DNA of 64,000 nucleotides from a virus (lineage: Duplodnaviria; Heunggongvirae; Uroviricota; Caudoviricetes), in the IMG/VR virus record IMGVR_UViG_3300048850_000049, positions 55,864-119,863 of that record. One strand, written 5' to 3'. Below, one piece after another: positions 1,404-57,888 of this stretch. A model generated the notes under the pieces. That model was not told the origin of the DNA, did not search any database, and saw nothing but the letters and a program-made list of their open reading frames with translations. Positions within the stretch are counted from its first letter, which is position 1; every line of letters begins with the position of its first letter. The position numbers and the translations under genes are program-made.

Positions 1404-1988
1404 ATGAACGACAGACACGACCGGATGCGAGTGAAAGCCCGGAAGTATCTCGCGAAGAGGAAATCAATGTCTTATCCGATTAAAACGCGGTCGATCTCGC
1501 TCGACCATAGGGGCGGCACCAAGTCCTATCACCTCATGATTATTGAGGCTGCGAACGGGAATGCCGTCTTTATCAGTCGCTGGGGCAAGACCGGTCAGTT
1601 CGGCGAAATGAAGGTCGAAGAATACGACAGTCCTGCCAAGGCAATGAAGGCTTGGGAAAAGAAGGAGCGCGAAAAGACGCGAAACGGATACGGTCAGGCA
1701 GGTCCGGCGCGAGAAGGCCGCGCGGACACGTCTGACGAGTTCCCGAAGGCCGTCTCGCTGTCCATCTTCAACAAGATGGGTGCAAGTGCCGTCAAGCACC
1801 TCGACCCCGGCTTCGACACCGCAGGAATGCGTGAGGCTGATCCCGCCCAGTATGACGAGGAGACCGGCAGGAAGATCGATACGGCGCGCAAGGCTGACAT
1901 TAGCGAAGCGCTCGCGGCCGAAAAGGCTGCTTCTGAGAAAGCCGCTGCCGAGGCTTACGCCGACAATCCGATTTTTGGGAGGTTCTGA
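1404..1988 (+). CDS. WGR-domain protein; C-terminal PIFGRF tail
   Basis: RWGKTGQFGEMKVEEYDSPAKAMKAWEKKEREKTRNGY matches the WGR-domain pattern; ends ..NPIFGRF. Confidence 0.5.
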   Translation: MNDRHDRMRVKARKYLAKRKSMSYPIKTRSISLDHRGGTKSYHLMIIEAANGNAVFISRWGKTGQFGEMKVEEYDSPAKAMKAWEKKEREKTRNGYGQAGPAREGRADTSDEFPKAVSLSIFNKMGASAVKHLDPGFDTAGMREADPAQYDEETGRKIDTARKADISEALAAEKAASEKAAAEAYADNPIFGRF

Positions 1989-2536
1989 TGTCTGGACCCG
2001 TTTTGACGTTAATGAGCGCGAACAAGGCTTCGTTCACTTGCCCGATTTTCAATGTGGAAACCCGGGTTTCCCACTGCCTGCAGTTGCGCGACAAGGTTTG
2101 GGCAGGCTTCAAGCCTCCGATCCGCAAGGGCTGCCAGGCGTGCATGACGGCCGGCAAGTGCCCGATGGCGAAGATGGTCGACAAGATAATCTACGGCAAG
2201 CAGGGCAAGGATGCGCCCGAGCCTTACGCGTCGGCGGAGCCCAAGCAGGTCAAGCTGCGCGACGATCTCCTCGAACGTGTCCTGCCGGTCCTGGTCCGCC
2301 ACGAAACGATGTCCCGCTACGATGTGAGCGACAAGGAACGTGAACTGATCGAGTCCGCGAACGATCGCATCCGCAAGCAGATGCAGAATGCTCCGCTGGC
2401 TTCCAGCGACACGGTTTCAACGCCTTACCGCAGGTCTGCGCCGAAGAAGGTCGCACCGAAGCCGAGCAACACCAACAACCGCATCAACGAAGCTGCAGCT
2501 TCCGGCGATCTCGCCGCAGCCGTGAACGCAGCGTAA
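1988..2536 (+). CDS. Hypothetical Cys-rich protein; C-terminal SGDLAAAVNAA motif
   Basis: ATG overlaps the upstream TGA; N-terminal Cys cluster (CPIF..HC..C..C..C); the tail motif is shared with two other ORFs. Confidence 0.4.
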   Translation: MSGPVLTLMSANKASFTCPIFNVETRVSHCLQLRDKVWAGFKPPIRKGCQACMTAGKCPMAKMVDKIIYGKQGKDAPEPYASAEPKQVKLRDDLLERVLPVLVRHETMSRYDVSDKERELIESANDRIRKQMQNAPLASSDTVSTPYRRSAPKKVAPKPSNTNNRINEAAASGDLAAAVNAA

Positions 2537-11749: not shown

Positions 11750-13054
11750 ATGAACCAGGTAGTTGAAACTGGTGCAGTCACCGCTGCACCGGACGGGAAG
11801 ATTTTGTGCCATATCGATAACGTTCGCGTTCACTCGATCCAGTCGCACATCCAGAAAAACCATAAGGGCTGGACGATCGAAAAGTATCAGGCCGATTTTC
11901 CTGGTGAACCGATTCTGTCGGACACTGCAAAAACGCTGCTCGCCAAGCGTGAGCAGGAAATGAGCGCCGCGGCTAGTGCTGCGCCGGCCGCTGCATCAGT
12001 TCAGGCGCAGATGGTCGCCGACGCGACCGGCATGTCCGCTCCCCAGGTCATCGTCAATCAAGCGTTCTTCCACGATCTATTCGAACTTGGCGCTGCACCT
12101 TCTGCGCTCTCGACCAAGGGTCAGCCCATCCCGGTCAAGACGCTCTCCGGGCATGACAGCCTCTCGGCCGATTACCTGCCCGAGATCGACAAGGCGTATG
12201 TGTTCAACATTGATCTTCTCAAGAAGGTCATTATCGGCTTGGAACTGAATATTCCCTCCTATCTATGGGGCTATCACGGCACCGGCAAGACGACGCTCCT
12301 GCAGCAGGCTGCAGCGCGCACCCGCCGTCCGTTCATGCGCGTCCAGCATACGATCAATATGCAGGAGTCGGACGTTCTTGGTCAGTGGACCGTGCGTTCG
12401 CGGCCCGTTGAGGTGGAGCAAATCGACCAGACCGGTGTCAAGCACATGGTTGTTCAGCAGCAGTCCGTCACCGAGTTCCAGCTTGGACCGTTGCCGCTCG
12501 CGATGATCAACGGCTGGGTCTACTGCGCCGATGAATACGATTTCGCGATGCCGTCTGTAACTGCGGTCTATCAGCCGGTTCTCGAAGGCCAGGCGCTGAT
12601 CATCAAGGATGCTCCTGCACACTTCCGCAAGATCGTCCCGCATCCGAACTTCCGCTTCGTTGCAACCGGCAACACCAACGGCATCGGTGACGAAACCGGT
12701 CTCTATCAAGGCACGCTTGTGCAGAACGCAGCCAACTATTCCCGCTTCGGCATCACTGTCGAGGTCGAATACATGGAAGCGAAGATCGAACAGGCGATCC
12801 TCACCTCCAAGACCGGCATCGACGCGGCGAACGCCTCGAAGATCGTCAAGATGGCGAATGAGGTGCGCAAGATGTTCCGCGATGGCAAGATCACCATGAC
12901 GATCTCGCCGCGTGAGCTGCTCCGCTGCGCTTCGCTCGGGATCGCTTACGGCGGTAACTGGACGCTCGGTATGGAGCTCGCTTTCGCAAACCGTCTGTCG
13001 CGCGTCGATAAGAAGGTTGTCCAGGAATACATGCAGCGGGTGTTCGGATCTTGA
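11750..13054 (+). CDS. cobS: CobS-like AAA+ ATPase (AAA_5/MoxR type)
   Basis: Walker A GYHGTGKTTLL; follows the vWA partner directly; RBS AGAGGGAA. Confidence 0.6.
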   Translation: MNQVVETGAVTAAPDGKILCHIDNVRVHSIQSHIQKNHKGWTIEKYQADFPGEPILSDTAKTLLAKREQEMSAAASAAPAAASVQAQMVADATGMSAPQVIVNQAFFHDLFELGAAPSALSTKGQPIPVKTLSGHDSLSADYLPEIDKAYVFNIDLLKKVIIGLELNIPSYLWGYHGTGKTTLLQQAAARTRRPFMRVQHTINMQESDVLGQWTVRSRPVEVEQIDQTGVKHMVVQQQSVTEFQLGPLPLAMINGWVYCADEYDFAMPSVTAVYQPVLEGQALIIKDAPAHFRKIVPHPNFRFVATGNTNGIGDETGLYQGTLVQNAANYSRFGITVEVEYMEAKIEQAILTSKTGIDAANASKIVKMANEVRKMFRDGKITMTISPRELLRCASLGIAYGGNWTLGMELAFANRLSRVDKKVVQEYMQRVFGS

Positions 13055-13056
13055 GT

Positions 13057-13710
13057 ATGACGCAGTATCGCGATCCGAAGGAAAGCCGCGCCCAGATTAA
13101 GGCTTTCGCTCACAAGGTTCTCCGCCGGGTGCATTCACTCGGCGCGAGGACGCAGACACTGGACGATGTTGAGGGCGAATTGTGGGTAGCATGGTGCCTC
13201 GCCTGTGAACGCTTCAATCCGGAAGCAGGCTGCGCCTTCTCGACCTATCTCTACACGGGTATGCGCCGGCACATTAATCGCTGGATCGAAAAGAATTTCG
13301 AGCGCTTCCACGATGAGACGGTCGCCGCGTCCCTAGACGCTTCCTATGGGTCAGAGATGTCTGAGGATGGTTCGGGCTCGACGCTCGGCGAGGCAGTCGC
13401 TGACACGCATATGCGTCAAGACCAGGAATACGAGCAGAAGGATTGCTTCGCTTACGCCCTCACCCGGTTGTCTGACCGCGCCAAGATGTTCCTGACCTTC
13501 CTTAAGGATCATCCGCCCGAGCTGATGGCGCAGATGAAGGATCTCGAAGCGAAAGCGAAGCACGCGAAGGAACTTGGCGTCACCTATGCCATGCCCAACC
13601 GTCTCACCAGCTTCATGATCTTCGATTTCATGGGCGCTACTCGCGTCGAACGGAAGCAAATTATGGACGAGGTTGCCCAGGTGGGGCAGCTGATTTCGAA
13701 CCAGGGTTAA
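13057..13710 (+). CDS. Sigma-70 family protein (region 2-like)
   Basis: ERFNPEAGCAFSTYLYTGMRRHINRWIEK resembles sigma region 2.1-2.4 (FNPE.G..FSTY....IR..I); start overlaps the cobS stop. Confidence 0.55.
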   Translation: MTQYRDPKESRAQIKAFAHKVLRRVHSLGARTQTLDDVEGELWVAWCLACERFNPEAGCAFSTYLYTGMRRHINRWIEKNFERFHDETVAASLDASYGSEMSEDGSGSTLGEAVADTHMRQDQEYEQKDCFAYALTRLSDRAKMFLTFLKDHPPELMAQMKDLEAKAKHAKELGVTYAMPNRLTSFMIFDFMGATRVERKQIMDEVAQVGQLISNQG

Positions 13711-13711
13711 G

Positions 13712-14260: not shown

Positions 14261-17200
14261 ATGCACTCAATTCTCGCAGCCCGCACTGACTTTTCAGTCG
14301 GTGAAAGCATCCTCACGACCAAGTTTCTCATCAAGAATGCGGTCGATGCGGGTGCCAAGGCAGTCGCGATGACGGATACCATGTCTGTCACCGGCATGAT
14401 CGACTTCACCGGCAAGGCGAAAGCTGCAGGATTGAAGCCTATTATCGGCGTCCGCCTGCGCCTGGTGGACAATCCGGAATGGCGTCCTGGCGACGGCGAG
14501 AAGAAGAAGGACATGCCGCGTCCCTACTTTCTGACGCTCTATGCGCTGAAAGAAGCTGGCATCAAGGCGATCTTCCGGCTGCTGACGCTCGCAAACGGCG
14601 CAAGTCGCTTTTATTACGAGCCGAAGCTCGGCTTCACGGATCTCTATGATGAACTGAGGGCCATCGAGGGTGACGAGTTGGCGATTGTCCTTGGCGATGC
14701 GCACTCGGTTCTGGAGCATCCTGACGCAGACGAGATCGTCCGCAATCTCAGCGCCGAGGTCACGCATCTTTATGCGCCGCTGATTCCTATCGACACGCCC
14801 TATTATGGGCGTCTTAACGAGATCGCCCTGCGGATTATCGCTGACACTTACGCCAAGCCGATTATCGTTCGTCCCGCCTTCTATGGTCAGGGCGAAGCTG
14901 ACACGCAGGAGATCATGACCGCGATCTCCGACAATCATAAGATTACCGATGGCTGGTTTAAGTCGCGTCACAACCGCGACATGCACGTCATGAGCCTGAC
15001 CGAACTCGTAGGTCAGATGAAGATTGCAGTCCAGCACCTTGAAAAGCGAGGCATTGTTGGCGCTGGCGCTGAGTTCAAGCAGGGGCTGCTCAACACGGGC
15101 GTTCTCGTCGCTGCCGTCGAATATGAATGGTCAAAGGCCGAGGTCTCGCTGCCTATCATGGCGCCTGATGAGTTCGCCGCTTTGCTGGAAGAATGCAAGA
15201 AGGGCTGGAAGATCCGCTTTGATGCTCCGGTCTTCGGACATCAACCGACGCCGGCCGAATTGTCGACCGTCTACAAGGAGCGGCTTGCCTACGAATTGCA
15301 GACGCTCAAGCGGCTCAACTTCTCGGGTTACTTCCTGCTCGTGCAGGACGTGGTGCAATTCGCCAAGAACAGCGACATTCTGGTTGGTCCTGGTCGTGGT
15401 TCCGTGGGCGGATCCCTTGTCGCTTATCTAATGGGCATTACCGAGTGCGATCCTATCCGGTTCGGGCTGCTTTTCGAGCGCTTCATCAATCCTGACCGTA
15501 TCGATCTTCCCGACGCCGATCTCGACTTCATGTCCGAGCGCCGGCACGAGATTTTCGAATACCTGGTCAAGAAGTATGGCGATGCGCGCGTCGCAGGCGT
15601 TTCGAACTTTGGAACGCTCGCTTCCGCCTCGTCAATCCGCGATGTTGGCCGCGTGACCAACATTCCTGAAAAGGACTATTCGGTCTCAAAGTTCGTGCCT
15701 AAGAAGAACGGTCAGAACATTCCCCTGCCCGACTGCCGCAAGGCAGTTCCCGAGATCGATGCGTTCGCTAACAACTATCCGGCTTTCTGGCCAATCATGG
15801 AACGGCTTGAAGGCACGATCCGCAACTTCGGACAGCACGCAGCTGGTGTGGTCGTCGGCGGAGTTGATCTTGTAGAGCGTGCCGTCATTGAACGGCGCAA
15901 GGACGGCTCTGTCGTCTGTTGGGACAAGCGCATCGTCGAGGATCAGGGCCTGGTCAAGATGGATATTCTTGGTCTTGTTACCCTCGATCTTATCAAGCTG
16001 ACGCTCGATTATGTTCGCGAACGTTCCGGCAAGCGTGTGGATATCAGCCGGATTCCCCTCGATGATGAGAAGGTTCTTGCGAACTTCGTCAAGGCGAACA
16101 CGACCGCGGTCTTTCAGTTCGAGTCCGGTGGTATGCGCCGGCTTCTGAAGGAACTCGGCTCGACCGGCTCGATCACGTTCGAGGATATCACCGCCGCAAC
16201 TGCTCTTTACCGTCCTGGTCCGATGGAATCGGGCATGATGGACAGCTTCTATCTGCGCAAGCAGGGGCATGAGACCATTGAATATGACCATCCGCTGATG
16301 GAGCCGGTGCTCGAGGAGACCTTCGGCGTCATCGTCTACCAGGAACAGGTCATGAAGATCTCCCAGGTGATTGCCGGCTACTCCGGTGCCGCTGCTGACA
16401 AGCTGCGCAAGATCATGGGTAAGAAGCTGCCCGAGGAAATGAAGAAGGAGCGCCAGAAGTTCTGCGATGGCTGCGTCGCCACGATTGCTTGCACCGAAGA
16501 ATGGGCAGGCGAGCTTTTCGACAAGATTGAAGGCTTCGCCGGCTACGGCTTCAACAAGAGCCACTCGGTCGAATACACGCTGATCTCCTACCAGGCGATG
16601 TGGCTCAAGACCTATCACGCCGTCGAGTTCTACGCGGCTGCCCTGACGCTTCTGAAGGAAGAAAAGCTGACTGGCATTATCCGCGATGCAAAGGCCCTCG
16701 GCATCGATGTATCCATGCCTGACATCAACATTTCGACCAACCGGTTCGAGATTGCGACGGACGCAAGGCTTGTGATGCCGTTCCAGCGTATCAAGGGACT
16801 GTCTCAGAAGGCGACTGACGCGATTATTAACGCTCGGGCGGCTGGTCCCTTCAAGGACAAGACCGACTTCCTCAATCGTGTGGAGAAGCGCGTCTGCAAC
16901 GTGAAGGTGCAAGGCGCTCTGGATCTTGTCGGCTCTTTTGCCCGCATCGAGCCTGGCCAGGTGGCCGCGAACGATCCGAGCCGCATCAAGGACCAGATCG
17001 AGCTCCTGCCCGGTCTCATCGCCGTCCATGTGCCTATCGATCATGAACTCAACCGCGACAAGGATACGAAGGTCGCGCTCGGCGAGCTGGTTGACGAATA
17101 TCGCGCAGCGCACGGTCCTGCCGCAACGGTCGCTGACGGATATCCGGTCAAGCCGTTCTTCGGCAAGGAAGCGTCTGCGATGGTGATCTCGGATGCTCCC

Positions 17201-17620
17201 GGCAATGAGGAAGATACGGGCGGCATCATGGGCTTCTCGATGTCAAACAACTCCGTCATCGAGGCGCTGGAAGAAAATAGCCTTGATAGAACGCATATTT
17301 ACTGGACGGCGCTCATCAAGCGTCCGAAGCGCGGCAAGCAGGTCACGCCTGACGAAATTGCGATGTATTGGCCGTATCTCGAAAAGGAGATCGAGATCCT
17401 GCAGCCGCCTATCATCGTGCTTCTCGGCTCGCAGACGGTTCGCCACTTCATGCCCGACTTCAAGGGCAAGGCGTCCGACATGGCCGGCAAGGTAGTCTAT
17501 TCGAAGAAGTATGACGCAAACCTGGTGATCGGCTTCTCGCCTGGCGAAATCTACCATGATCCGGACAAGCAGACGAACATGAATGAGGTCTTCTCCTCAG
17601 TTGCGGACATGCTGGCATGA
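14261..17620 (+). CDS. dnaE: DNA polymerase III alpha (compact DnaE) fused to a C-terminal degenerate UDG family-4-like domain
   Basis: N-terminal PHP (ILAARTDFSVGESIL..), GYGFNKSHSVEY polymerase core, HhH; C-terminal about 180 aa aligns to family-4 UDG (ISDAPGNEEDTGG, PIIVLLGSQ, GFSPGE) with GE->SD and HP->SP substitutions and no Fe-S cysteines. Confidence 0.8.
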   Translation: MHSILAARTDFSVGESILTTKFLIKNAVDAGAKAVAMTDTMSVTGMIDFTGKAKAAGLKPIIGVRLRLVDNPEWRPGDGEKKKDMPRPYFLTLYALKEAGIKAIFRLLTLANGASRFYYEPKLGFTDLYDELRAIEGDELAIVLGDAHSVLEHPDADEIVRNLSAEVTHLYAPLIPIDTPYYGRLNEIALRIIADTYAKPIIVRPAFYGQGEADTQEIMTAISDNHKITDGWFKSRHNRDMHVMSLTELVGQMKIAVQHLEKRGIVGAGAEFKQGLLNTGVLVAAVEYEWSKAEVSLPIMAPDEFAALLEECKKGWKIRFDAPVFGHQPTPAELSTVYKERLAYELQTLKRLNFSGYFLLVQDVVQFAKNSDILVGPGRGSVGGSLVAYLMGITECDPIRFGLLFERFINPDRIDLPDADLDFMSERRHEIFEYLVKKYGDARVAGVSNFGTLASASSIRDVGRVTNIPEKDYSVSKFVPKKNGQNIPLPDCRKAVPEIDAFANNYPAFWPIMERLEGTIRNFGQHAAGVVVGGVDLVERAVIERRKDGSVVCWDKRIVEDQGLVKMDILGLVTLDLIKLTLDYVRERSGKRVDISRIPLDDEKVLANFVKANTTAVFQFESGGMRRLLKELGSTGSITFEDITAATALYRPGPMESGMMDSFYLRKQGHETIEYDHPLMEPVLEETFGVIVYQEQVMKISQVIAGYSGAAADKLRKIMGKKLPEEMKKERQKFCDGCVATIACTEEWAGELFDKIEGFAGYGFNKSHSVEYTLISYQAMWLKTYHAVEFYAAALTLLKEEKLTGIIRDAKALGIDVSMPDINISTNRFEIATDARLVMPFQRIKGLSQKATDAIINARAAGPFKDKTDFLNRVEKRVCNVKVQGALDLVGSFARIEPGQVAANDPSRIKDQIELLPGLIAVHVPIDHELNRDKDTKVALGELVDEYRAAHGPAATVADGYPVKPFFGKEASAMVISDAPGNEEDTGGIMGFSMSNNSVIEALEENSLDRTHIYWTALIKRPKRGKQVTPDEIAMYWPYLEKEIEILQPPIIVLLGSQTVRHFMPDFKGKASDMAGKVVYSKKYDANLVIGFSPGEIYHDPDKQTNMNEVFSSVADMLA

Positions 17621-25024: not shown

Positions 25025-25366
25025 ATGCAGCTCTACACCGTCCACTTTTCGACCAAGCAGATCGTGTCGCAGTTCAACGCGAAAGGTCAAAAGACTGGCG
25101 AGTATCAGCTGGATTATCCGCAGACGCTGCACGCCCTGCCGCTGACGACGGCGCAGCAGTATAAGACCTGCGATAACTACAGCATCGAGCCTTACTTCAT
25201 CGAGGCGCACAAGCAGGCCGTCAACTCCTTCAAGCCCAAGTCCCGGCCGGATTATTCCGGTGCAGCCAAGCGCGGCAAGACCTTCACGAAGAAGGCAGCC
25301 AAGTCTAGCGTCAGCCATGCAGCCGAGACCGGCGATCTGGCAGCGGCACTGAACGAGGCTTACTAA
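25025..25366 (+). CDS. Hypothetical protein with C-terminal ETGDLAAALNEAY motif
   Basis: RBS plus ATG; tail motif shared with two other ORFs. Confidence 0.4.
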   Translation: MQLYTVHFSTKQIVSQFNAKGQKTGEYQLDYPQTLHALPLTTAQQYKTCDNYSIEPYFIEAHKQAVNSFKPKSRPDYSGAAKRGKTFTKKAAKSSVSHAAETGDLAAALNEAY

Positions 25367-34315: not shown

Positions 34316-34569
34316 AGAAGTTCGCCCTTCTCGCGGCAGTTGCCGCAACCTCGCTCCTCGCCGGCTGCGGTGTGGATCCGGACAATGCTCGCCGCGCCCT
34401 GGAAGCGCAGGGCATCACCAACGTCCAGATCGGCGGACATGCCTTCTTCGGTTGCGACAAGAATGATCAGTTCGCGTCCAATTTCACCGGCGTCGGCGTC
34501 AATGGCAAGCCTATCTCCGGCGTTCTGTGCGGCGGGATCTTCAAGGGCATCACCGTTCGCTATGACTAA
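34312..34569 (+). CDS. Small lipoprotein
   Basis: Signal peptide plus lipobox LLAGC. Confidence 0.55.
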   Translation: MKKFALLAAVAATSLLAGCGVDPDNARRALEAQGITNVQIGGHAFFGCDKNDQFASNFTGVGVNGKPISGVLCGGIFKGITVRYD

Positions 34570-35945: not shown

Positions 35946-36055
35946 AAGCACGAGGCGACAAACATGAGTTTACGTTTCGCACAGGCCGCGTTCGCCGCCT
36001 CATTCTGCTTCATTGTCGGTCTTGTTCTTTTTCAATTCTAATCCAGGAGCCATGA

Positions 36056-36478
36056 ATGCCCGATACAAACGACCAGAGTGCCGCTGAGGTGGTGAAAGTC
36101 GAACCGACGCTTGCCATTATCCGCGGTGAGCGTGAAGAGTCCGCTGCAGCCGCTGAGAAGGCTAAGGCTGAACGCGAGGAAAACTACCGTTTGCAGCTGA
36201 AGCGCTCCGCTTTGGGCCGCGTTTTCGACATGTCCCAGGACGTGGACAAGAAGCTCGCTGAGATCAAGGCGCAGAAGAAGCTCCTCAAGAGCTTGCGCGA
36301 TGATCTGGCCGCTGCCGAAAAGGACGAAAGCCTGACGGTTGGCGATCTGAATGTCCTGATCGATCGCGGCGTCGAAGCTGTATATGGGAGCAAGGTCCAT
36401 ACCGGCGGGATCGTTTTCAATCCGATTTCTATTCTTGCGCGCTCGCCGCTTGAAGATTTGGTCTATCGGGTTTCTTAA
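36056..36478 (+). CDS. Hypothetical coiled-coil protein
   Basis: AGGAG RBS; charged helical sequence. Confidence 0.4.
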   Translation: MPDTNDQSAAEVVKVEPTLAIIRGEREESAAAAEKAKAEREENYRLQLKRSALGRVFDMSQDVDKKLAEIKAQKKLLKSLRDDLAAAEKDESLTVGDLNVLIDRGVEAVYGSKVHTGGIVFNPISILARSPLEDLVYRVS

Positions 36479-36491
36479 CCGGTAGGCTTTG

Positions 36492-36538
36492 GAGATCCGG
36501 ACTAAAACGCCGGATCTTCTCTTCCGGGTAGCTCCCGG
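36492..36538 (+). terminator. Two hairpins (GAGATCCGG..CCGGATCTT; CCGGG-TAGCT-CCCGG)
   Basis: After gene 36056..36478, before the tRNA-like region. Confidence 0.35.
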
Positions 36539-36573
36539 TAATCAGCAGAACGAGAATTGATAGGGGTCGTTAC

Positions 36574-36641
36574 GCCCCGGTAGCACAGGGCCGTGCAGTG
36601 GTTGAAAGCCAAAGGTCGTGGTTCGACTCCACGCCGGGGAT
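36574..36641 (+). tRNA. tRNA-like element 1 (acceptor/D/T arms; no canonical anticodon stem found by eye)
   Basis: 6-bp acceptor CCCCGG/CCGGGG, U8A9, D-stem GCAC/GUGC, T-arm CGUGG-UUCGACU-CCACG. Confidence 0.35.
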
Positions 36642-36859
36642 GCCTATCAAGCCCGCAAGGGTGCTGTAAAACGAGGCGTCATAACCCACGCCTATCGTCT
36701 GCAAAGCCGGAGTAGCGCTCCGGCAACGAATAAAGATCGTGGCACACGGCAGTCCGCTCATTGCGATTGGAAGCCAGGTGCCCGTTCTCGAGCCCCTGCT
36801 TTGTATCGCGTTAGTCAGGCTAGTAGGTTCACCGTATGGGGACCGGCTCCGAGTTAAGT

Positions 36860-36990
36860 CCCGCCGCTCGAAGGCTAAAGGATGGACTGTTCGAAACGTC
36901 CTTCTGGTGCCAGGGGTGGCCCTAGAGAGAGCAAGTGACCAAGGCTCACGCAAGGCCAAGGTCCAAGAGGTTCGATTCCTCGGCGGGGCA
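36860..36990 (+). ncRNA. Structured RNA region with a tRNA-type T-arm (GAGG-UUCGAUU-CCUC); 5' boundary unresolved
   Basis: T-arm at 36966-36982 followed by 3' strand CGGCGGG; the only complementary 5' strand (CCCGCCG) lies at 36860, giving about 130 nt, which is too long for a normal tRNA. Confidence 0.25.
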
Positions 36991-37145
36991 TCACATTCGC
37001 CCGAATGGGCAAAAGTTTGAGGAAGTGGGGAGGTAGCGTGCTCCGCGGGATTTGAGACACTGATGCGCTTGTGTCTCTCGGCGAACAACCGCCCGCCCTC
37101 ATTACCGTCGGACGAACGGCCCTTCCCTGGGTCGCCGACGGTCAT

Positions 37146-37213
37146 GCTGAGGTCGTCTAGCTGGTTAGGACGCAACGTATACCGAAACGTGGGTTCGACT
37201 CCCACCCTCAGCC
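37146..37213 (+). tRNA. tRNA-like element 3 (7-bp acceptor, D-arm, T-arm; anticodon arm not canonical)
   Basis: GCUGAGG/CCUCAGC acceptor, D-stem CGUC/GACG with loop UAGCUGGUUAG, T-arm GUGGG-UUCGACU-CCCAC. Confidence 0.35.
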
Positions 37214-37227
37214 CAACCACACATCCC

Positions 37228-37285
37228 CTGCCGCATTCCACTTCGACATTTGCTACTTTGAGTAATCAGTAAGCACTTACTTAAC
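37228..37285 (+). promoter_or_regulatory. Promoter variant (CTGCCGCATTCCAC .. TGCTACTTT) plus palindrome AGTAATCAGTAAGCACTTACTTAAC
   Basis: Upstream of the lipoprotein gene 37301. Confidence 0.45.
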
Positions 37286-37300
37286 GAAAGGAATTCAGAC

Positions 37301-37543
37301 ATGAAGAAGTCACTTATCTCCGTCGGCGTGATGCTGGCGCTTAGCGCCTGCTCTACAACGGGTTTCCAGCCCAATGACAAATACGAGACGGTCGCCGGCT
37401 ATCCGTTCAAGACGAACCTGAGCTGCACGCGCACCAAGCCGGTCGGCCTGTTTGATCCCAAGTGCGACTATCCCCGTCTCGGCTTCAAGGGCTTCTCGCC
37501 CATGCCCGATTTCAGCGTCGGAAGTGGCGTCAGCGGCAGCTAA
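37301..37543 (+). CDS. Small lipoprotein
   Basis: MKKSLISVGVMLALSAC signal plus lipobox. Confidence 0.5.
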   Translation: MKKSLISVGVMLALSACSTTGFQPNDKYETVAGYPFKTNLSCTRTKPVGLFDPKCDYPRLGFKGFSPMPDFSVGSGVSGS

Positions 37544-37587
37544 GTCAACTGGCGCGCTCTTCGGGGCGCGCCACCCTCACTCATTAC

Positions 37588-37645
37588 CTACCGCATCCCA
37601 ACAATTGCTGCGCTATAACGATGTCAGTAAGTAGTTACTTAAGAG
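37588..37645 (+). promoter_or_regulatory. Promoter (CTACCGCATCCCAAC .. CGCTATAAC) plus palindrome CAGTAAGTAGTTACTTAAG
   Basis: Upstream of the GHKL ATPase gene. Confidence 0.55.
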
Positions 37646-37651
37646 GCACAA

Positions 37652-40018
37652 ATGCAGGTTTCCACAATCGCAGAGCTTGATACGCACGCCGTTATTGGCG
37701 GTGGGCAAGCCCAGGCTTTCGGAATGTCCGACAGCGCTGAATTCTTCACCGTTCTTTCCGACACCCTTTATCGCGACAAGAAGCGCGCCGTGATCCGCGA
37801 AGTGATCTGCAACGCCCATGATGCTCACGTCATGGTCGGTAAAACCGATGTGCCGCTGGAAATCACGCTCACCGAAAACGAGCTAACCATCAAGGATTTC
37901 GGGCCTGGCATCGCCAAGGACAAGATCGGTCCCGTCTACTGCGTTTATGGCGCATCGACCAAGGTCAAGGATGCAACTCAGACCGGTGGCTTCGGGCTCG
38001 GCTGCAAGGCGCCGTTTGCGTATTCCGACCACTTCACGGTTACGAGCTGCATCGATGGGTTCCGCACGCTTTGGGCGATCTCTCGCGGCGGGGCTGCAAC
38101 CGATGGTAAGCCGGACTTTCGTGCGATGGTGTCCGTGCCCTCGACTGAAACTGGTATCACCGTGTCGATCCCGCTCAAGAACAGCGGCGATGTGCAGGTG
38201 TTTACGACGCTCATCAAGGAAGTGGTCCGCAACGGCGGGATGCTCGCCAAGCTCAATGGCGAACGCCTGGAGCGCTTCGACTACACCGAGGCTCGCAAGA
38301 ATGGTTTCGCAATCGCACCGCGCGGCAGCTACTCGTCATTCCGCGAGTCCCGCGTCTATCTGCTCTACGCGACCGTTCTCTATCCGGTTCTGACGACCGA
38401 TGAAGAGATTATGGCGAAGGTCGACGATTTTGACCGCCTGATCGAAAGCAATGGCCGCGCTGTGCTTATTGCCAAGCCGAACACGATTGGCGTGCAGCCC
38501 TCGCGTGAAGGTCTCTCCTACTCCGAGCTGACGACCGGCACGCTCCACTCTCTGCTCGATCAGGCGATCGCGACGTTGAAGGCGACTGGCCCTCTCATCG
38601 CTCGCAAGATCGTTCGGGCACATGCCAGGTCGATAATGAAGGATCGTTACGCCCTTACGGTCTCATCGCCCACGTCCTCCAATACGCCCTGCCGTGAATT
38701 GCTGTCGGATCCCAAGGTTATTGCTGAACGTGCCGTCCGGGAGCGCCTGTCCAACTACCTTCCGGACGCGCAACGCAGGAAGATTGCGATAAGCGAGATG
38801 GCGAAGAAGTTTCGTGATGATCGCCGCATTTTCAGGCGCGGCGCGGCCGACTATCGGTTCAACCTGGAACGAGAGCGGTTCGATCACTCCCGAAGGCTGA
38901 TTTTGCGCCTGGCTTCGAAGGCAGACGTTCTCGACAACGTGGTTCTTTTCACGAAGGATTCCGGTTACGTCCGCTGGGTAGGTTCCAAGATCGATGAAAA
39001 GCGCTTCAATCGCCCGATGATCCAGCGCTTGATTATCGGACCTTCTCGCAAGCTGGTCGATGAACAGCTTCGCAAGGAGTTCGATAGCAAGAGCCGCTCC
39101 GCCTATGACGATCAATCCAGCGACATCATTCCGGCTCTCATTCTCAACGCGCCGAGCGAGAAGCTGCTTATGTCAGTCCTTGAGATTGCAGAAGCTCTCA
39201 AGATCCCGACGACGCTGTTGGAATTTCCGAAGCGCAAGAAGTCGGCCAAGATTGGTGATCTGTTCACCGGACTGCTCGACCTTACGCACAATTCCAAAAA
39301 CTACACCTGGCGCGCGGTTAAGGCGAATGTGAGTGAGCCGAAGCACTATATACGCGCCTACGGCACGCAGGAGCGCCTTGAGCTAGGTTTTGCCCGTTAC
39401 AGCGAGGACAAGTCCGCGTTCAAGAAGATCGAGAATATGTTTCCCGGCACCGTCGTCGCCTGGACCGTCAAGCAAGAAGCCAAGTTAAAGTCGAAGGGTA
39501 TTCCGAACCTCGACGTGGTGATCGCTAAGGAGCTGAAGGCGCTCGAAAACAGCCGTGAGGTTCAGTATGCGACGATGATGCAGGGTGGTCACTTCATCTC
39601 CTCGCAGGAGTATCGTCACTCCATCTCCGGCAAGATTGCAGTTATGTGTTCGCAGTCCCTGACCATGTGCAAGTTTTTCTTCCCCGATCGCGCCAAGTTG
39701 GGCGACAAGACCGATCGTTTGCACAAGCTCTGCGAAATCGCCGGCATGATCGGCAATGAACGTGGCTATGCGTGTCCAAATGGCACTATCGCCCGCGAGA
39801 CGATGAAGAATATCGCAACGAAGGCGAAGATCACGTTCAAGGACATGATTATGGATAGCAGGGCGGTCGAAAAGAAGTTCGACTACATGCGACTGATCGC
39901 CAACATCAATTACAGCCCGGCCGATGACGAGCAGATCCTCGGCCTCATTAAGTTCCTCGCCAAGCAGGCGAAGGCTGCCTCATCTGCAAACACTGAAACC
40001 CAGAAGGAAGCTGCATAA
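37652..40018 (+). CDS. GHKL-family ATPase (HATPase_c-like N-terminal domain), 788 aa
   Basis: N-box VICNAHDA, G1 KDFGPGI and G2 TGGFGLG motifs at the N-terminus; long uncharacterised C-terminal region. Confidence 0.55.
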   Translation: MQVSTIAELDTHAVIGGGQAQAFGMSDSAEFFTVLSDTLYRDKKRAVIREVICNAHDAHVMVGKTDVPLEITLTENELTIKDFGPGIAKDKIGPVYCVYGASTKVKDATQTGGFGLGCKAPFAYSDHFTVTSCIDGFRTLWAISRGGAATDGKPDFRAMVSVPSTETGITVSIPLKNSGDVQVFTTLIKEVVRNGGMLAKLNGERLERFDYTEARKNGFAIAPRGSYSSFRESRVYLLYATVLYPVLTTDEEIMAKVDDFDRLIESNGRAVLIAKPNTIGVQPSREGLSYSELTTGTLHSLLDQAIATLKATGPLIARKIVRAHARSIMKDRYALTVSSPTSSNTPCRELLSDPKVIAERAVRERLSNYLPDAQRRKIAISEMAKKFRDDRRIFRRGAADYRFNLERERFDHSRRLILRLASKADVLDNVVLFTKDSGYVRWVGSKIDEKRFNRPMIQRLIIGPSRKLVDEQLRKEFDSKSRSAYDDQSSDIIPALILNAPSEKLLMSVLEIAEALKIPTTLLEFPKRKKSAKIGDLFTGLLDLTHNSKNYTWRAVKANVSEPKHYIRAYGTQERLELGFARYSEDKSAFKKIENMFPGTVVAWTVKQEAKLKSKGIPNLDVVIAKELKALENSREVQYATMMQGGHFISSQEYRHSISGKIAVMCSQSLTMCKFFFPDRAKLGDKTDRLHKLCEIAGMIGNERGYACPNGTIARETMKNIATKAKITFKDMIMDSRAVEKKFDYMRLIANINYSPADDEQILGLIKFLAKQAKAASSANTETQKEAA

Positions 40019-41490
40019 TGGCAAACATTCGCATTGCCGCTGCTATCGCAAGTCAGCACGGCATTACGCTCTACCTCGAAAACGGCAAGGAAATGAACCT
40101 GCCGACGACGAGCTGGCGCACCAAGGCTATTCTCGATGATATTCTCAAGCGCCTTTCGGTAGGTGAGATCGTTGAAATCGATCCGGAAACCTATTCGATC
40201 GAGGCTCGCGTCGAGAAGGAAACGAAGGGGTTGCTTCGCTTCACGAAGAAGACCAAGAGCTTCGTAGCCGGTCTGTTCGGCAAGAACGCCGCAAATGACG
40301 ACTTTGTTTCTGTCGTTCTCGCGCCTGCTGATCCGGTCAAGAAGTTCTCTGCATCCGTGGCTCCCGCTGCCGTTAGCGTCCAGGAAGAGGAAACTGAGCT
40401 GGTCGCTATTGTGACGAATAAGGCAACTGGCAAGGAAACCATGATTCCTGGCGTCGCTGCGCTTGAAAAGCACGTCGAGTCCGCCGTCATGAACAACAAT
40501 GTCGCCGGATTGCAGCGCTTCATGGAGCGTCTGGCCTCAATGCAGGCTAAGCGGTCGCACACGGTTCAGGAGCTCTTGCGCTTCATGGAACGCGGTGATC
40601 TTCCGATCGCTGATGACGGCTGCATCGTCGCCTACAAGGTCTTGCAGTCCAGCGGCTCGAATGGCTACTTCGTCGATTGCCACACGAAGCGCATTCAGCA
40701 GCGTGTCGGGTCGAAGGTGCAGCAGGCCGAAAGCCTGATTGACCAGGATAGGCGCCATGAATGCTCCACCGGTCTGCATATCGCCCGCCGTGGTTACTTG
40801 AAGCAGTTTGGCGGTGACATCATCACCATCGTCAAGGTCGCTCCGGAAGATGTGGTTGCAGTTCCGAATTACGACGCCAACAAGATGCGCGCGGCGTCAT
40901 ATCATATCGTCGGGCAGCTTCCGTCTGAAATTCATAGCGTCCTGCGTGCTGACAAGCCGATGACCGGGAACGTGGTCGCGGCAAAGATCCTCGCAGACGT
41001 GATCGCCGGCAACCATATCGGTGTTGTTGAAACGGTCAGCATCACGGAAGCGAATGGGGGAAGCTTCATTGTCACGCCTGTCAGCGACGGTGGAACGTTC
41101 GTGTCGGGCCAGGCAGGCTTCGCCAGGGCGTTGGATGCTCCGGTCGATGGTCTGAAGCCTGCCGACATTCGCGCCGCTGTAGAGGCCAATGTCGCAGCGA
41201 AGAAGGAAGAGATCAAGAAGGTCAAGGCTGTGAAGAGTGCGGCTGAGACCGGCGACCTCGCCGCTGCTCTGAGCGTGTCCGCGGCTCCCGCGAAGGCTAA
41301 GAAGCCGAAGCCTGAACCGAAGAAGAAGTTGGTCGCTACCAAGCCTAACAATCTCGACGCCGAGCAGCTTCCTACGAAGCACCTTCAGGCTCTGGAAATG
41401 CGCAAGAGCGGAATGTCCAACCGTGCGATCGAGGCTGAGCTCCATATCTGCCGCAAGACCTTGAAGAAGCTCTTCGACAAGCACGGCTGA
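40018..41490 (+). CDS. Hypothetical protein with a C-terminal LuxR/GerE-type HTH
   Basis: TAATG coupling to the GHKL gene; C-terminal LQALEMRKSGMSNRAIEAELHICRKTLKKLFDK; internal AAETGDLAAAL motif and a K/P-rich linker. Confidence 0.5.
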   Translation: MANIRIAAAIASQHGITLYLENGKEMNLPTTSWRTKAILDDILKRLSVGEIVEIDPETYSIEARVEKETKGLLRFTKKTKSFVAGLFGKNAANDDFVSVVLAPADPVKKFSASVAPAAVSVQEEETELVAIVTNKATGKETMIPGVAALEKHVESAVMNNNVAGLQRFMERLASMQAKRSHTVQELLRFMERGDLPIADDGCIVAYKVLQSSGSNGYFVDCHTKRIQQRVGSKVQQAESLIDQDRRHECSTGLHIARRGYLKQFGGDIITIVKVAPEDVVAVPNYDANKMRAASYHIVGQLPSEIHSVLRADKPMTGNVVAAKILADVIAGNHIGVVETVSITEANGGSFIVTPVSDGGTFVSGQAGFARALDAPVDGLKPADIRAAVEANVAAKKEEIKKVKAVKSAAETGDLAAALSVSAAPAKAKKPKPEPKKKLVATKPNNLDAEQLPTKHLQALEMRKSGMSNRAIEAELHICRKTLKKLFDKHG

Positions 41491-41521
41491 TAACTCCCGA
41501 CAATATAGCGCGCAAAATCGA

Positions 41522-41568
41522 AGCACTCCCTCGACTTGCGCGCTATAAAGTAAGTAAGCACTTAATTA
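41522..41568 (+). promoter_or_regulatory. Promoter (GCACTCCCTCGAC .. GCGCTATAA) plus palindrome AGTAAGTAAGCACTTAATTAT
   Basis: Upstream of the RNA ligase gene. Confidence 0.55.
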
Positions 41569-41572
41569 TAAT

Positions 41573-42187
41573 GTGGAGAATGCAGTGACCATCACCATTC
41601 CTGATCGCGAATTCAAGTCCTTCGAAAAGATCAACCGCGCCAAGACCGGCTTCGGTTGTGTCATGACCGAGAAGCTCGACGGTTCAAACGCCCAGATCCT
41701 CATCGAGGACGGCAAGATCGTCGGCGTCGGATCCCGTCAGCGCTGGATCAAGCCTGGTAAGGAACACGACAACTTCGGATTTGCCGCCTGGGTTGAGCGA
41801 AACGAGGAAGAACTCCTCCGGCTCGGCGACGGCGCTCACTTCGGTGAATGGTATGGGTCCGGCATTCAGCGCGCATACGGTCTGACTGGCGGTGACAAGC
41901 GCTTCGCTCTGTTCAACACGGGTCGCTGGTCAAACGATGAGATCCGCCCTGCCTGCTGCGAATGCGTGCCTGTCCTGTTTGCCGGCGAGTTCACTCGCGA
42001 GAACGTCAACATGGTCATGCGGAATCTCGCCGAAGAGGGTTCGCGCCATGTGCCCGGTTTCATGCGCCCCGAAGGAATCGTCATTTTCATCCCTGGCTCA
42101 CGTTCGCTCCTCAAGGAAACTTTCGAGTTCTCCGACGGCAAGTGGAAGGCCGATAACGCAAATGCCTCAGCTGTCGCTGTCGCTTAA
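41573..42187 (+). CDS. Rnl2-like RNA ligase nucleotidyltransferase domain protein
   Basis: Motif I TEKLDGSN, motif III HFGEWYGSGIQ (compare T4 Rnl2 FGEFAGPGIQ), motif IV EGIVIF; GTG start. Confidence 0.6.
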   Translation: MENAVTITIPDREFKSFEKINRAKTGFGCVMTEKLDGSNAQILIEDGKIVGVGSRQRWIKPGKEHDNFGFAAWVERNEEELLRLGDGAHFGEWYGSGIQRAYGLTGGDKRFALFNTGRWSNDEIRPACCECVPVLFAGEFTRENVNMVMRNLAEEGSRHVPGFMRPEGIVIFIPGSRSLLKETFEFSDGKWKADNANASAVAVA

Positions 42188-42196
42188 GGAACAATC

Positions 42197-42880
42197 ATGA
42201 CGATCACTCACCGTCACAGCGGCATCAACACCCCGACGACGGCTCCCGTCGCCACTGGTCGCGGACCTTACATGCACTCCTCCAACGGCCGGAAGATTTA
42301 TCCGTTCGATCCGCGCCCGGAGGAATTGAACATCAACGTGATCGCGCACCACCTGGCCTGCAATAATCGCTGGAACGGCGCAACGCAGCACAAGCGGTTC
42401 AAGTCGCGCATCTCCTTCTCCGTTGCAGAGCATTCGGTCCTGGTCGCAAGGTATATGGTCGAACACCTGAAGCGTCCTGACCTGGAGCTGGAAGCGTTAA
42501 TGCACGACGCACCGGAATATCTCCTTTCTGACATGATCCGGCCGATCAAGCACGATCCGCGCGTCTATCCGGTTTACAAGCCGCTTGAAGACAGGGCCGA
42601 GAAGGTGATCGCTGAGCGGTTTGGCCTGATCTATCCGCTTCCGCCCGAGGTCAAGATGGCTGACGAGGCTGTCTGCGCGGCCGAGGCCATTCAGATCGTT
42701 CCCAAGGATGAGCGCGACGAATGGATCTCCGGCAAGATGCACGATGATAGCCGGGTTGCTCCTTACGAAATCCAGATGCTCGGCGCCTACGCCGCGAAGG
42801 AATTGTTCCTGGTCGCCTATGAAGAAGCCATTCGTCGCCGGCCTGACTTCCACATGCTTCCGTCTTCTGTTGAGCTATAA
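42197..42880 (+). CDS. HD-domain phosphohydrolase (YfbR-like 5'-deoxynucleotidase family)
   Basis: H..SVAEHS ... LMHDAPE HD motifs. Confidence 0.6.
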   Translation: MTITHRHSGINTPTTAPVATGRGPYMHSSNGRKIYPFDPRPEELNINVIAHHLACNNRWNGATQHKRFKSRISFSVAEHSVLVARYMVEHLKRPDLELEALMHDAPEYLLSDMIRPIKHDPRVYPVYKPLEDRAEKVIAERFGLIYPLPPEVKMADEAVCAAEAIQIVPKDERDEWISGKMHDDSRVAPYEIQMLGAYAAKELFLVAYEEAIRRRPDFHMLPSSVEL

Positions 42881-57334: not shown

Positions 57335-57888
57335 TGGCGCTAACCGAACTCTCTGAATGGCTCAACTTGGCAGACAAGCCGGGCTTCAGCGTTGGCGAGC
57401 TGGCGCCGTTCCTCGCCATGTCACGCGGCAACGGCAAGTCCACGTTCATGCGCGACTTCATGCAGGAGATAATCACGTCCGCAGAAGCCGAGCCTATCAA
57501 TCAAATCGTCGTCGGCACGCGCGGCATCCTTTCGATGATTGACGAGCTGCAGCCGGCCATCAAGTTTGAGCCTGACCTAATCAAGAGGTTCTCCGATCCG
57601 GATTGGCCGGCAGCGGACGTGACCGTCACTCTCGAAAAGCTCGACAAGAAGGATCCACGGCATCCTAACCCTGAAGCCGGCACCATTCGGCGTTTTTACG
57701 TGAATGCAAGTGGCCGTCGATCCAATCAGAAGAACAAGACGGCTGCGCTCAATCATGGCAAGCGAACGCATGAGCGCCTGGTCGCAGCCCTCGTCAAGGA
57801 TCGTGACGACAGGATCGCCGCTGAGAAGCGCGAGCTGCTGGAGCGTCACGCCTACCTCAACAGCTTACCAACCTTTGGAGATTACTGA
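57325..57888 (+). CDS. Hypothetical protein (ends ..LPTFGDY, a variant of the FGAF tail)
   Basis: Coupled ORF. Confidence 0.4.
   Translation: MVLMALTELSEWLNLADKPGFSVGELAPFLAMSRGNGKSTFMRDFMQEIITSAEAEPINQIVVGTRGILSMIDELQPAIKFEPDLIKRFSDPDWPAADVTVTLEKLDKKDPRHPNPEAGTIRRFYVNASGRRSNQKNKTAALNHGKRTHERLVAALVKDRDDRIAAEKRELLERHAYLNSLPTFGDY

What the first reader, a model, noticed from the sequence alone, without database searches (positions are those of the whole stretch)
37652..41490. Translationally coupled pair: 788-aa GHKL ATPase and 490-aa protein ending in a LuxR-type HTH
The first protein has Bergerat-fold motifs (NAHDA N-box, DFGPGI G1, GGFGLG G2) but no Toprim or GyrA-type motifs, so it is not a topoisomerase II. 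The partner ends in a GerE/LuxR HTH and carries the ETGDLAAAL peptide. Pairing a GHKL ATPase with an HTH effector resembles a non-canonical sensor/regulator or MORC/MutL-like chromatin ATPase arrangement. It could control the phage promoters or act on host DNA.
Basis: partly seen in the sequence, partly recalled or inferred. Interest (0 to 1): 0.6.

Follow-up and report, generated by a model that had tools for sequence, protein, structure and literature searches.

The report
Phage rIIA–rIIB counter-defence gene pair
The two overlapping genes are this phage's copies of rIIA and rIIB, a long-known pair that lets phages such as T4 and N4 grow on bacteria carrying Rex-type suicide defences, so the finding is real but ordinary.

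Summary
Both ORFs exist as described: 37652..40018 (788 aa) and 40018..41490 (490 aa), overlapping in TAATG. All quoted motifs are present. The pair is the classical phage rIIA/rIIB module, not a new sensor/regulator or MORC-like system. PHROG RIIA matches at E 3e-123 and RIIB at E 5e-113. BLASTP to T4 rIIA gives E 6e-28 and to T4 rIIB E 1e-21. N4 gp33/gp34 are 38–42% identical. Rhizobium phage RHph_X66 has 62–63% identical, syntenic genes already annotated rIIA/rIIB.

The rIIA model has a Bergerat fold (Hsp90, topo II ATPase and MutL hits), and the ATP-site residues are invariant in 60 homologues. There is no Toprim, HisKA or nuclease domain. The rIIB model ends in a confident three-helix HTH of the resolvase/transposase/sigma-4/NarL class. 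"LuxR-type" specifically is below threshold. T4 rIIB has the same kind of HTH at its N-terminus, so the HTH looks like a family feature that sits at the other end here.

The most likely function, inferred from experiments on T4 and N4, is protection against Rex-like abortive infection. The molecular mechanism is unknown for the whole family.

Side observations: a phage promoter-plus-palindrome unit brackets the pair, and the ETGDLAAAL peptide recurs at the C-termini of two other proteins.

The parts
37605..37641 (+). Phage promoter-like unit upstream of rIIA. It consists of GCGCTATAA (37610-37618) followed by the palindrome TAAGTAGTTACTTA (37628-37641).
   Evidence: The palindrome pattern gives 16 hits (about 14 sites) against 0.01 expected. 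GCGCTATAA gives 8 hits, all on the + strand, against 0.21 expected. The aligned flanks show a common TTTGCGCTATAA-N-TAAGTAAGCACTTACTTA unit upstream of start codons.
37641..37646 (+). Shine-Dalgarno-like AAGAGG, 5 nt before the rIIA ATG.
   Evidence: Read directly from the sequence.
37652..40018 (+). rIIA orthologue, 788 aa.
   Evidence: phrog_2979 'RIIA' E 3.4e-123 and phrog_612 E 1.6e-62. T4 rIIA E 6e-28. N4 gp33 38% identity, E 9e-60, and RHph_X66 rIIA 62% identity.
37652..38671 (+). Conserved N-terminal module of rIIA (residues 1-340). It comprises the GHKL/Bergerat ATPase domain (N-box E50/N54/D57, G1 D82-G84-G86, G2 G112-G117) plus a second alpha/beta domain.
   Evidence: The motif residues are invariant in 60 homologues. 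The AF2 model has pLDDT 86.1. Foldseek PDB hits are TRAP1/Hsp90 at E 4e-13, the T6 and ASFV topo II ATPase domains at about 3e-8, and MutL 1b63 at 1e-7. Pfam HATPase_c scores 20.7 bits, below the cut-off. Many homologues carry PF13589/PF02518.
38672..40015 (+). Variable, mostly helical C-terminal region of rIIA (residues 341-788), with no recognisable catalytic domain.
   Evidence: PHROG and T4/N4 similarity stop at about residue 300-355. No Pfam family was hit. The region is described as 'highly variable C-terminal domain' in PMC7824862.
40003..40020 (+). rIIA/rIIB junction: SD-like GAAGGAAG (40003-40010), then stop TAA (40016-40018) overlapping ATG (40018-40020).
   Evidence: The same overlap geometry is found in RHph_X66 and N4.
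40018..41490 (+). rIIB orthologue, 490 aa.
   Evidence: phrog_2886 'RIIB' E 5.3e-113 over residues 3-490. T4 rIIB E 1e-21. N4 gp34 42% identity, E 4e-58. The 24 BFVD matches at E<=1e-3 are dominated by proteins named rIIB, in N4-like, T4-like, CbK-like and other phages; the rest are unnamed or otherwise labelled.
40519..40911 (+). Conserved rIIB core (residues 168-298), including the C249-x2-G252-L253-H254...Y260 motif shared with T4 rIIB.
   Evidence: BLASTP alignment to T4 rIIB residues 178-304. Invariant columns in 59 homologues. No solved structure matches this part.
41245..41271 (+). ETGDLAAAL peptide (rIIB residues 410-418), in the Ala/Lys-rich linker between the core and the HTH.
   Evidence: Conserved as AAxxGD[LM][SA]AA in most clade members. 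It recurs at the C-termini of ORFs 1988..2536 and 25025..25366, and in two other proteins of RHph_X66.
41374..41484 (+). C-terminal three-helix HTH of rIIB (residues 453-489).
41540..41564 (+). Next promoter-like unit (GCGCTATAA at 41540-41548, palindrome at 41551-41564). It marks the start of the following transcription unit, an RNA ligase gene at 41573.
   Evidence: An equivalent motif lies after rIIB in RHph_X66.

Best explanation
This is the rIIA-rIIB module of an uncultivated phage of about 120 kb, related to Rhizobium phage RHph_X66. The two genes lie between two phage promoter-like units and are probably one transcription unit. A one-base stop/start overlap probably keeps the two products in step.

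rIIA is a GHKL ATPase, Hsp90/MutL/GyrB-like in its N-terminal 340 residues, with an intact ATP site and a lineage-variable helical C-terminal half. rIIB has the conserved rIIB core, a flexible Ala/Lys-rich linker and a small three-helix HTH.

By homology with T4, N4 and other phages, the pair most likely acts early in infection as a conditionally required counter-defence. In those phages it keeps Rex-type abortive-infection systems, carried by prophages or the host, from collapsing the membrane potential and killing the infected cell.

Shown here: identity of the genes, fold, conserved ATP-site residues, the HTH, and the operon anatomy.

Inferred: the two proteins work as a complex (supported by natural rIIA-rIIB fusions), ATP binding or hydrolysis drives it, and the biological role is anti-exclusion. 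How rII neutralises Rex is not known for any phage.
For: PHROG RIIA E 3.4e-123 and RIIB E 5.3e-113. BLASTP to T4 rIIA E 6e-28 and T4 rIIB E 1e-21. N4 gp33/gp34 at 38%/42% identity, E 9e-60 and 4e-58.

RHph_X66 orthologues are 62% and 63% identical (BLASTP), annotated rIIA/rIIB, with the same neighbours: dUTPase, P-loop kinase, tRNA, rIIA, rIIB, RNA ligase, HD phosphohydrolase, HNH.

The rIIA model matches Hsp90, topo II ATPase domains and MutL, and the ATP-site residues are invariant. The BFVD matches to the rIIB model at E<=1e-3 are dominated by proteins named rIIB.

The profile phrog_609 (1055 positions) matches rIIA at its N-terminal end and rIIB at its C-terminal end, and RB43 has a 1049-aa 'RIIA-RIIB' protein. 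These are natural fusions. The stop/start overlap is conserved in X66 and N4.

Experimental basis for function in homologues: knock-down of rIIA or rIIB in T4, MM02, EdH4, SUSP1 and N4 reduces plating only on RexAB-expressing E. coli (PMC11879866). Transposon insertions in T4 rIIA/rIIB are depleted only with RexAB (bioRxiv 10.1101/2025.11.20.689424).
Against: No experiment exists for this phage or its clade. It is unknown whether rhizobial hosts carry Rex-like systems.

The C-terminal halves of rIIA and the N-terminal parts of rIIB are not conserved with T4, so specificity may differ.

The HTH, and the view of one group that rIIB is a transcription factor (PMC7824862), leave room for a DNA-directed activity that the 'membrane protector' picture does not explain.
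Confidence: 0.85

Rival explanations
1. The pair is a transcription or chromatin regulator. The rIIB HTH would bind the palindrome that follows each phage promoter, and the rIIA GHKL ATPase would act as a MORC/MutL-like DNA clamp that tunes phage or host gene expression.
For: There is a confident HTH at the rIIB C-terminus, and T4 rIIB has a near-threshold N-terminal HTH (HTH_7 23.6 bits against a cut-off of 23.8). The palindrome TAAGTA-NN-TACTTA occurs at about 14 sites (16 pattern hits), including directly upstream of rIIA. PMC7824862 lists rIIB among 'specific TFs'.
Against: No link between rIIB and the palindrome was found. The phage encodes its own sigma factor, and its relative RHph_X66 has XRE and CopG regulators, which are more ordinary candidates. 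rII genes in T4 and N4 are dispensable without RexAB, which is not expected of a general promoter regulator. rIIA has no DNA-binding or DNA-cleaving domain.
Confidence: 0.08
2. The pair is a non-canonical two-component system: a histidine-kinase-type ATPase that phosphorylates a LuxR/NarL-type response regulator.
Against: No HisKA/DHp or receiver domain was found at E<=1. The rIIA fold hits are to Hsp90, topo II and MutL, not to kinases. GerE scores 14.9 bits against a cut-off of 23.5, and the domain has three helices, not the four of GerE.
Confidence: 0.01
3. The pair is a DNA-processing GHKL enzyme (topoisomerase, MutL-like nickase or Paraclamp-like) with an HTH targeting subunit.
For: The fold resembles the topo II ATPase domains of T6 and ASFV and MutL. 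There is a weak hit to phrog_543, 'topoisomerase II large subunit', at E 4e-4.
Against: The similarity is limited to the ATPase and adjacent domain. No Toprim, GyrA/ParC or MutL C-terminal endonuclease domain was found in either protein.
Confidence: 0.03

Closest known systems
Rhizobium phage RHph_X66 rIIA (QWY83065.1) and rIIB (QWY83066.1), and the RHEph10 / RHph_N1_15 / B1VFA group of 115-122 kb rhizobiophages
   Same: RHph_X66 rIIA is 62% and rIIB 63% identical over the full length by BLASTP. The gene order, the TAATG overlap, the C-terminal HTH, the linker peptide and a promoter/palindrome after rIIB are all shared.
   Different: The sequences have diverged. The window has an 80-aa lipoprotein-like ORF and two tRNA-like genes upstream, where X66 has one tRNA-Cys.
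Escherichia phage N4 gp33/gp34 (rIIA/rIIB-like), shown to counter lambda RexAB
   Same: The rIIA N-terminal 314 residues are 38% identical, and rIIB residues 121-333 are 42% identical. The genes are adjacent with a one-base stop/start overlap. The function was tested experimentally (PMC11879866).
   Different: N4 gp34 is 696 aa. Its tail carries two KKSWxxLGF-type repeats instead of the ICRKT-type HTH, and Pfam finds no HTH there. N4 is a podovirus; this phage's nearest relative is a siphovirus.
Escherichia phage T4 rIIA (725 aa) and rIIB (312 aa)
   Same: The GHKL N-terminal module is 29% identical over 302 residues, with all ATP-site motifs. The rIIB core is 33% identical over 134 residues, with the CxxGLH...Y motif. 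The genes are adjacent and co-oriented.
   Different: T4 rIIB carries its HTH at the N-terminus (residues about 7-50) and ends with the core. Here the HTH is C-terminal, after about 150 extra residues. In the T4 record the genes are 11 nt apart rather than overlapping. The rIIA C-terminal halves are unrelated in sequence.
GHKL ATPases Hsp90/TRAP1, MutL and the GyrB/topo II ATPase domain
   Same: Bergerat ATP-binding fold with N-box Glu/Asn, DxGxG and the Gly-rich lid, followed by a second alpha/beta domain.
   Different: Sequence identity is only 12-16%. There is no Toprim, endonuclease or Hsp90 C-terminal dimerisation domain. This is a resemblance of fold, not family membership.

Membership tests
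rIIA | Significant sequence similarity to T4 rIIA and curated rIIA profiles | tested here: met
   BLASTP to T4 rIIA E 6e-28. phrog_2979 E 3.4e-123 and phrog_612 E 1.6e-62.
rIIA | N-terminal GHKL ATPase domain with an intact ATP site, followed by a variable C-terminal region | tested here: met
   E50, N54, D57, D82, G84, G86 and G112-117 are invariant in 60 homologues. Foldseek matches Hsp90, topo II ATPase domains and MutL. The C-terminal 450 residues have no family hit.
rIIA | An rIIB gene immediately downstream on the same strand | tested here: met
   37652..40018 and 40018..41490. The same arrangement is found in X66, N4 and T4.
rIIA/rIIB | Conditionally required for growth on hosts with Rex-type exclusion | not testable with these tools
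   Known only for T4, N4 and a few others (PMC11879866; bioRxiv 10.1101/2025.11.20.689424).
rIIB | Sequence and structural similarity to the T4 rIIB core, including the CxxGLH...Y motif | tested here: met
   BLASTP to T4 rIIB E 1e-21. phrog_2886 E 5.3e-113. C249, G252, L253, H254 and Y260 are invariant. BFVD hits named rIIB run down to E 8e-38.
rIIB | A small HTH module (N-terminal in T4) | tested here: met
   Present, but at the C-terminus (residues 453-489). T4 N-terminal HTH: HTH_7 23.6 bits against a cut-off of 23.8. A profile of the C-terminal HTH aligns to T4 rIIB residues 12-46 only weakly, at 6.3 bits, so common descent of the two HTHs is not established.
Two-component system (histidine kinase plus LuxR/NarL response regulator) | HisKA/DHp phospho-acceptor domain in the ATPase protein | tested here: not met
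   No such Pfam hit at E<=1. The fold hits are to Hsp90, topo II and MutL.
Two-component system (histidine kinase plus LuxR/NarL response regulator) | Receiver domain and a four-helix GerE HTH in the partner | tested here: not met
   No Response_reg hit. GerE scores 14.9 bits against a cut-off of 23.5. The model has three helices.
Type II topoisomerase / MutL / MORC | GHKL domain plus an adjacent transducer-like domain | tested here: inconclusive
   Foldseek aligns 319-353 columns to the T6 topo II ATPase domain and MutL-NTD, with TM 0.46-0.51 on the target. This is fold-level resemblance only.
Type II topoisomerase / MutL / MORC | Toprim/GyrA-type cleavage core, MutL C-terminal endonuclease, or MORC-specific modules | tested here: not met
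   None was detected in either protein by Pfam or PHROGs.

The most novel reading that the evidence does not exclude
The rIIB architecture here is a conserved core, then a flexible basic linker carrying the AAxTGDLAAA peptide, then an HTH. The same peptide sits at the C-termini of small proteins encoded next to the DNA ligase and the SbcCD-like nuclease.

This would mean that rII works on DNA-bound or replisome/repair-bound complexes through a shared docking hub, with rIIA as an ATP-driven clamp. That would give a concrete handle on the 70-year-old question of what rII does, for example masking the DNA-protein intermediate that Rex-type sensors detect.
Probability: 0.12. Interest if true: 0.55.

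Novelty: already known. Interest (0 to 1): 0.13.

Why it matters
As found, it matters little. rIIA/rIIB occur in thousands of phage records: 2835 and 2814 of 50,697 in the collection searched. The nearest relative is already annotated as such.

Its modest value is as a data point for the unsolved rII mechanism. Two independent placements of a small HTH on rIIB (N-terminal in T4, C-terminal here) and strictly conserved ATP-site residues in rIIA argue that nucleic-acid binding and ATP turnover are parts of that mechanism. The high-confidence AF2 models show that the rIIB core has no counterpart among solved structures.

Tried and rejected
- PDB sequence search with both proteins gave no hit at E<=1.
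- Megablast against phage genomes found only a 284-bp match to RHph_X66, so no close genome is deposited.
- The sigma-70 promoter and intrinsic-terminator scan of 36000-42300 found nothing on the + strand and no excess over shuffles.
- The whole-window Rfam scan at gathering thresholds returned nothing, although a local scan later found two tRNAs.
- BLASTP of the C-terminal HTH against the T4 rIIB N-terminus gave no alignment. A profile gave only a weak, correctly placed match. I therefore do not claim the two HTHs are homologous, only that they are of the same class.
- 'LuxR/GerE-type' was rejected as a specific label.
- The two-component, topoisomerase, and MORC/MutL readings were rejected because the defining partner domains are absent.
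- PHROG and Pfam searches of the two other proteins carrying the ETGDLAAAL-like tail found nothing.
- Literature searches found no structural or mechanistic study of an rIIA-rIIB complex.
Full report
**1. Observation**

The stop TAA (40016-40018) shares its last base with the ATG of the second gene. A GAAGGAAG Shine-Dalgarno-like run lies 8-15 nt upstream. NAHDA, DFGPGI, GGFGLG and ETGDLAAAL are all in the translations.

**2. What it is**

PHROG profiles identify protein 1 as 'RIIA' (phrog_2979, E 3.4e-123; phrog_612, E 1.6e-62). Protein 2 is 'RIIB' (phrog_2886, E 5.3e-113, covering residues 3-490).

Direct BLASTP to T4 proteins supports this. T4 rIIA gives E 6e-28, at 29% identity over the N-terminal 302 residues, with every ATP-site motif aligned. 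T4 rIIB gives E 1e-21, at 33% identity over the C-terminal core, including CS(R/T)GLH...Y.

N4 gp33 and gp34 are closer, at 38% (E 9e-60) and 42% (E 4e-58).

The closest deposited phage is Rhizobium phage RHph_X66. Its rIIA is 62% and its rIIB 63% identical by BLASTP (tblastn gives 62% and 68%). The genes are annotated 'rIIA/rIIB protector from prophage-induced early lysis'. They sit in the same neighbourhood: dUTPase, P-loop kinase, tRNA, rIIA, rIIB, RNA ligase 2, HD phosphohydrolase, HNH endonuclease.

Homologues of each protein occur in about 2,800 of 50,697 phage records. The window's own proteins are on a 119,863-bp JGI contig and are labelled 'hypothetical'.

**3. Structure checks**

*rIIA.* The AF2 model, built with 60 homologues, has pLDDT 86.1. 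Foldseek against PDB finds TRAP1/Hsp90 (E 4e-13), HtpG, the T6 and ASFV topoisomerase II ATPase domains (about 3e-8), and MutL-NTD (1e-7).
- E50, N54, D57 (N-box), D82/G84/G86 (G1) and G112-G117 (G2) are invariant across the 60 homologues. The Bergerat fold and a competent ATP site are well supported.
- No Toprim, GyrA, HisKA or nuclease family was hit.
- Similarity to other rIIA proteins stops near residue 300-355. [quoted passage not shown]

*rIIB.* The AF2 model, built with 59 homologues, has pLDDT 86.8 and pTM 0.75. Its parts are:
- an N-terminal alpha/beta domain (residues 1-90);
- a disordered linker;
- the conserved core (about residues 126-355);
- a long Ala/Lys-rich helix and a low-confidence Lys/Pro-rich stretch (381-446);
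- a confident three-helix bundle (453-489).

Pfam matches to the C-terminal segment are all sub-threshold and spread over HTH_68, HTH_28, GerE, HTH_7 and HTH_23. It is therefore a generic small HTH, and the LuxR/GerE label is not specifically supported.

Against predicted viral structures, the 24 matches at E<=1e-3 are dominated by proteins named rIIB, from N4-like, T4-like, CbK-like and other phages. The remainder are unnamed or carry other labels.

**4. The HTH is not peculiar to this protein**

The C-terminal HTH is 67-78% identical in ten Rhizobium phage records. It is present in about 50 of the 59 aligned homologues. Some of these reach Pfam thresholds for HTH_23 or HTH_psq.

T4 rIIB has the same class of HTH at its N-terminus: HTH_7 at 23.6 bits against a cut-off of 23.8, plus HTH_28, HTH_23 and sigma-70 region 4, over residues 7-50. 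A profile of the C-terminal HTH aligns to T4 residues 12-46, but only weakly, and pairwise BLAST finds nothing.

I conclude that an HTH is a recurrent rIIB component whose position differs between lineages. Common descent of the two HTHs is not shown.

**5. Operon anatomy**

A unit of the form TTTGCGCTATAA(A/G)-N2-3-TAAGTAAGCACTTACTTA recurs across the window.
- The palindrome pattern gives 16 hits (about 14 sites) against 0.01 expected.
- GCGCTATAA gives 8 hits, all on the + strand, against 0.21 expected.
- Most copies lie 10-35 nt upstream of a start codon.

One copy ends 10 nt before the rIIA ATG (37605-37641). The next begins 50 nt after the rIIB stop (41540-41564). The pair therefore looks like a two-gene transcription unit.

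The one-base stop/start overlap is conserved in RHph_X66 and N4. Natural rIIA-rIIB fusions exist: phrog_609 matches both proteins at its two ends, and RB43 has a 1049-aa 'RIIA-RIIB' protein. Both facts support stoichiometric co-expression and joint action. Translational coupling itself remains an inference.

**6. How it most likely works**

*Established for homologues.* rIIA and rIIB are dispensable on naive hosts but required on hosts expressing lambda RexAB, an abortive-infection system that depolarises the membrane. This holds for T4, MM02, EdH4, SUSP1 and N4, despite less than 40% identity between their rII proteins (PMC11879866; bioRxiv 10.1101/2025.11.20.689424). rIIB can also be the trigger sensed by a bacterial gasdermin/CARD system (bioRxiv 10.1101/2023.05.28.542683). 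The mechanism of Rex inhibition is stated to be unknown.

*Inferred for this phage.* The pair is an ATP-driven rIIA-rIIB complex that protects the infected cell from a Rex-like exclusion system of rhizobial prophages or hosts.

The PHROG label 'lysis inhibitor' is historical. From my own knowledge of the T4 literature, rII is not part of the rI/T holin lysis-inhibition pathway.

**7. Rivals**

- *Promoter or chromatin regulator.* This reading has the HTH and the palindromes in its favour, and one comparative-genomics paper calls rIIB a 'specific TF' (PMC7824862). However, nothing links rIIB to the palindrome. The phage has its own sigma factor at 13051..13710 (Sigma70_r2, 37.2 bits). Its relative RHph_X66 has XRE and CopG regulators. 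rII is conditionally dispensable in the model phages.
- *Two-component system, or topoisomerase/MutL/MORC.* Both readings fail because their defining partner domains are absent.

**8. Novelty and score**

The kind of system is textbook, and this clade's copies are already annotated. The only mildly new points are the C-terminal placement of the HTH and the shared linker/tail peptide.

- Novelty: already known.
- Interest: 0.13.

Noticed in passing
window 9039, 11696, 18897, 23558, 28482, 29603, 32627, 37270, 37628, 41551, 42887, 45781, 50169, 58494 (+ strand): A recurrent intergenic unit, roughly TTTGCGCTATAA(A/G)-N2-3-TAAGTAAGCACTTACTTA, mostly 10-35 nt upstream of start codons. The palindrome pattern gives 16 hits (about 14 sites) against 0.01 expected, and GCGCTATAA gives 8 against 0.21. 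It looks like a phage-specific promoter followed by a palindromic leader or operator. It is also present in RHph_X66 (3 hits in 17.5 kb). Where one arm varies the other does not compensate, so whether it is an RNA hairpin or a protein operator is undecided.
   Followed up: partly
window 41245-41271; 2498-2536 (end of ORF 1988..2536); 25325-25366 (end of ORF 25025..25366); RHph_X66 record positions 27429, 76631 and 91251: The peptide AA(E/A)(T/S)GDLAAA(L/V/I) sits in the rIIB linker and at the extreme C-termini of two small unannotated proteins. One is a 182-aa Cys-rich protein just before the ATP-dependent DNA ligase. The other is a 113-aa protein just after the SbcD-like nuclease. Each copy follows a basic Lys/Pro/Ala-rich stretch. 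RHph_X66 has the peptide in rIIB and at the C-termini of two other proteins. It looks like a shared short docking motif for an unknown partner.
   Followed up: partly
window 36480-37300: This stretch has no convincing ORF. A local Rfam scan finds two tRNAs above the gathering score: 36574-36641 (34.8 bits; ARAGORN calls it tRNA-Phe) and 37146-37213 (41.3 bits; missed by ARAGORN). The whole-window gathering scan reported neither. About 500 nt between them is unexplained. RHph_X66 has a tRNA-Cys at the same place.
   Followed up: partly
window 37301-37543 (+): An 80-aa ORF with a lipoprotein-type signal peptide (MKKSLISVGVMLALSAC) and its own promoter/palindrome unit (37270), immediately upstream of rIIA. 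It has no PHROG hit and is not annotated in RHph_X66. It could be a superinfection-exclusion or membrane protein.
   Followed up: no
window 13051-13710 (+): A phage-encoded sigma factor (Pfam Sigma70_r2, 37.2 bits against a cut-off of 24), next to a DNA polymerase III alpha gene (14261..17620). It is a likely reader of the GCGCTATAA-type promoters.
   Followed up: partly
homologue lists; RHph_X66 record 10519-15583 and 57511-58623: Many rIIA/rIIB homologues lie on 110-122 kb contigs inside assemblies labelled Rhizobium, Ensifer, Mesorhizobium, Shinella, Aureimonas or Phaeobacter. RHph_X66 encodes ParA, ParB and RepC-like proteins. These phages may persist as plasmid-like or carrier-state elements in their hosts.
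   Followed up: no
window 34358-34435 (-): ARAGORN calls a tRNA-Trp on the minus strand. It was not reported by the Rfam gathering scan and was not checked further.
   Followed up: no
L004 (N4) gp34 C-terminus: N4 rIIB ends with two copies of a KKS(W/Y)xxLG(F/L) motif. In the alignment this motif falls where the alphaproteobacterial-phage rIIBs have the AAxTGDLAAA peptide. Pfam detects no HTH there.
   Followed up: no
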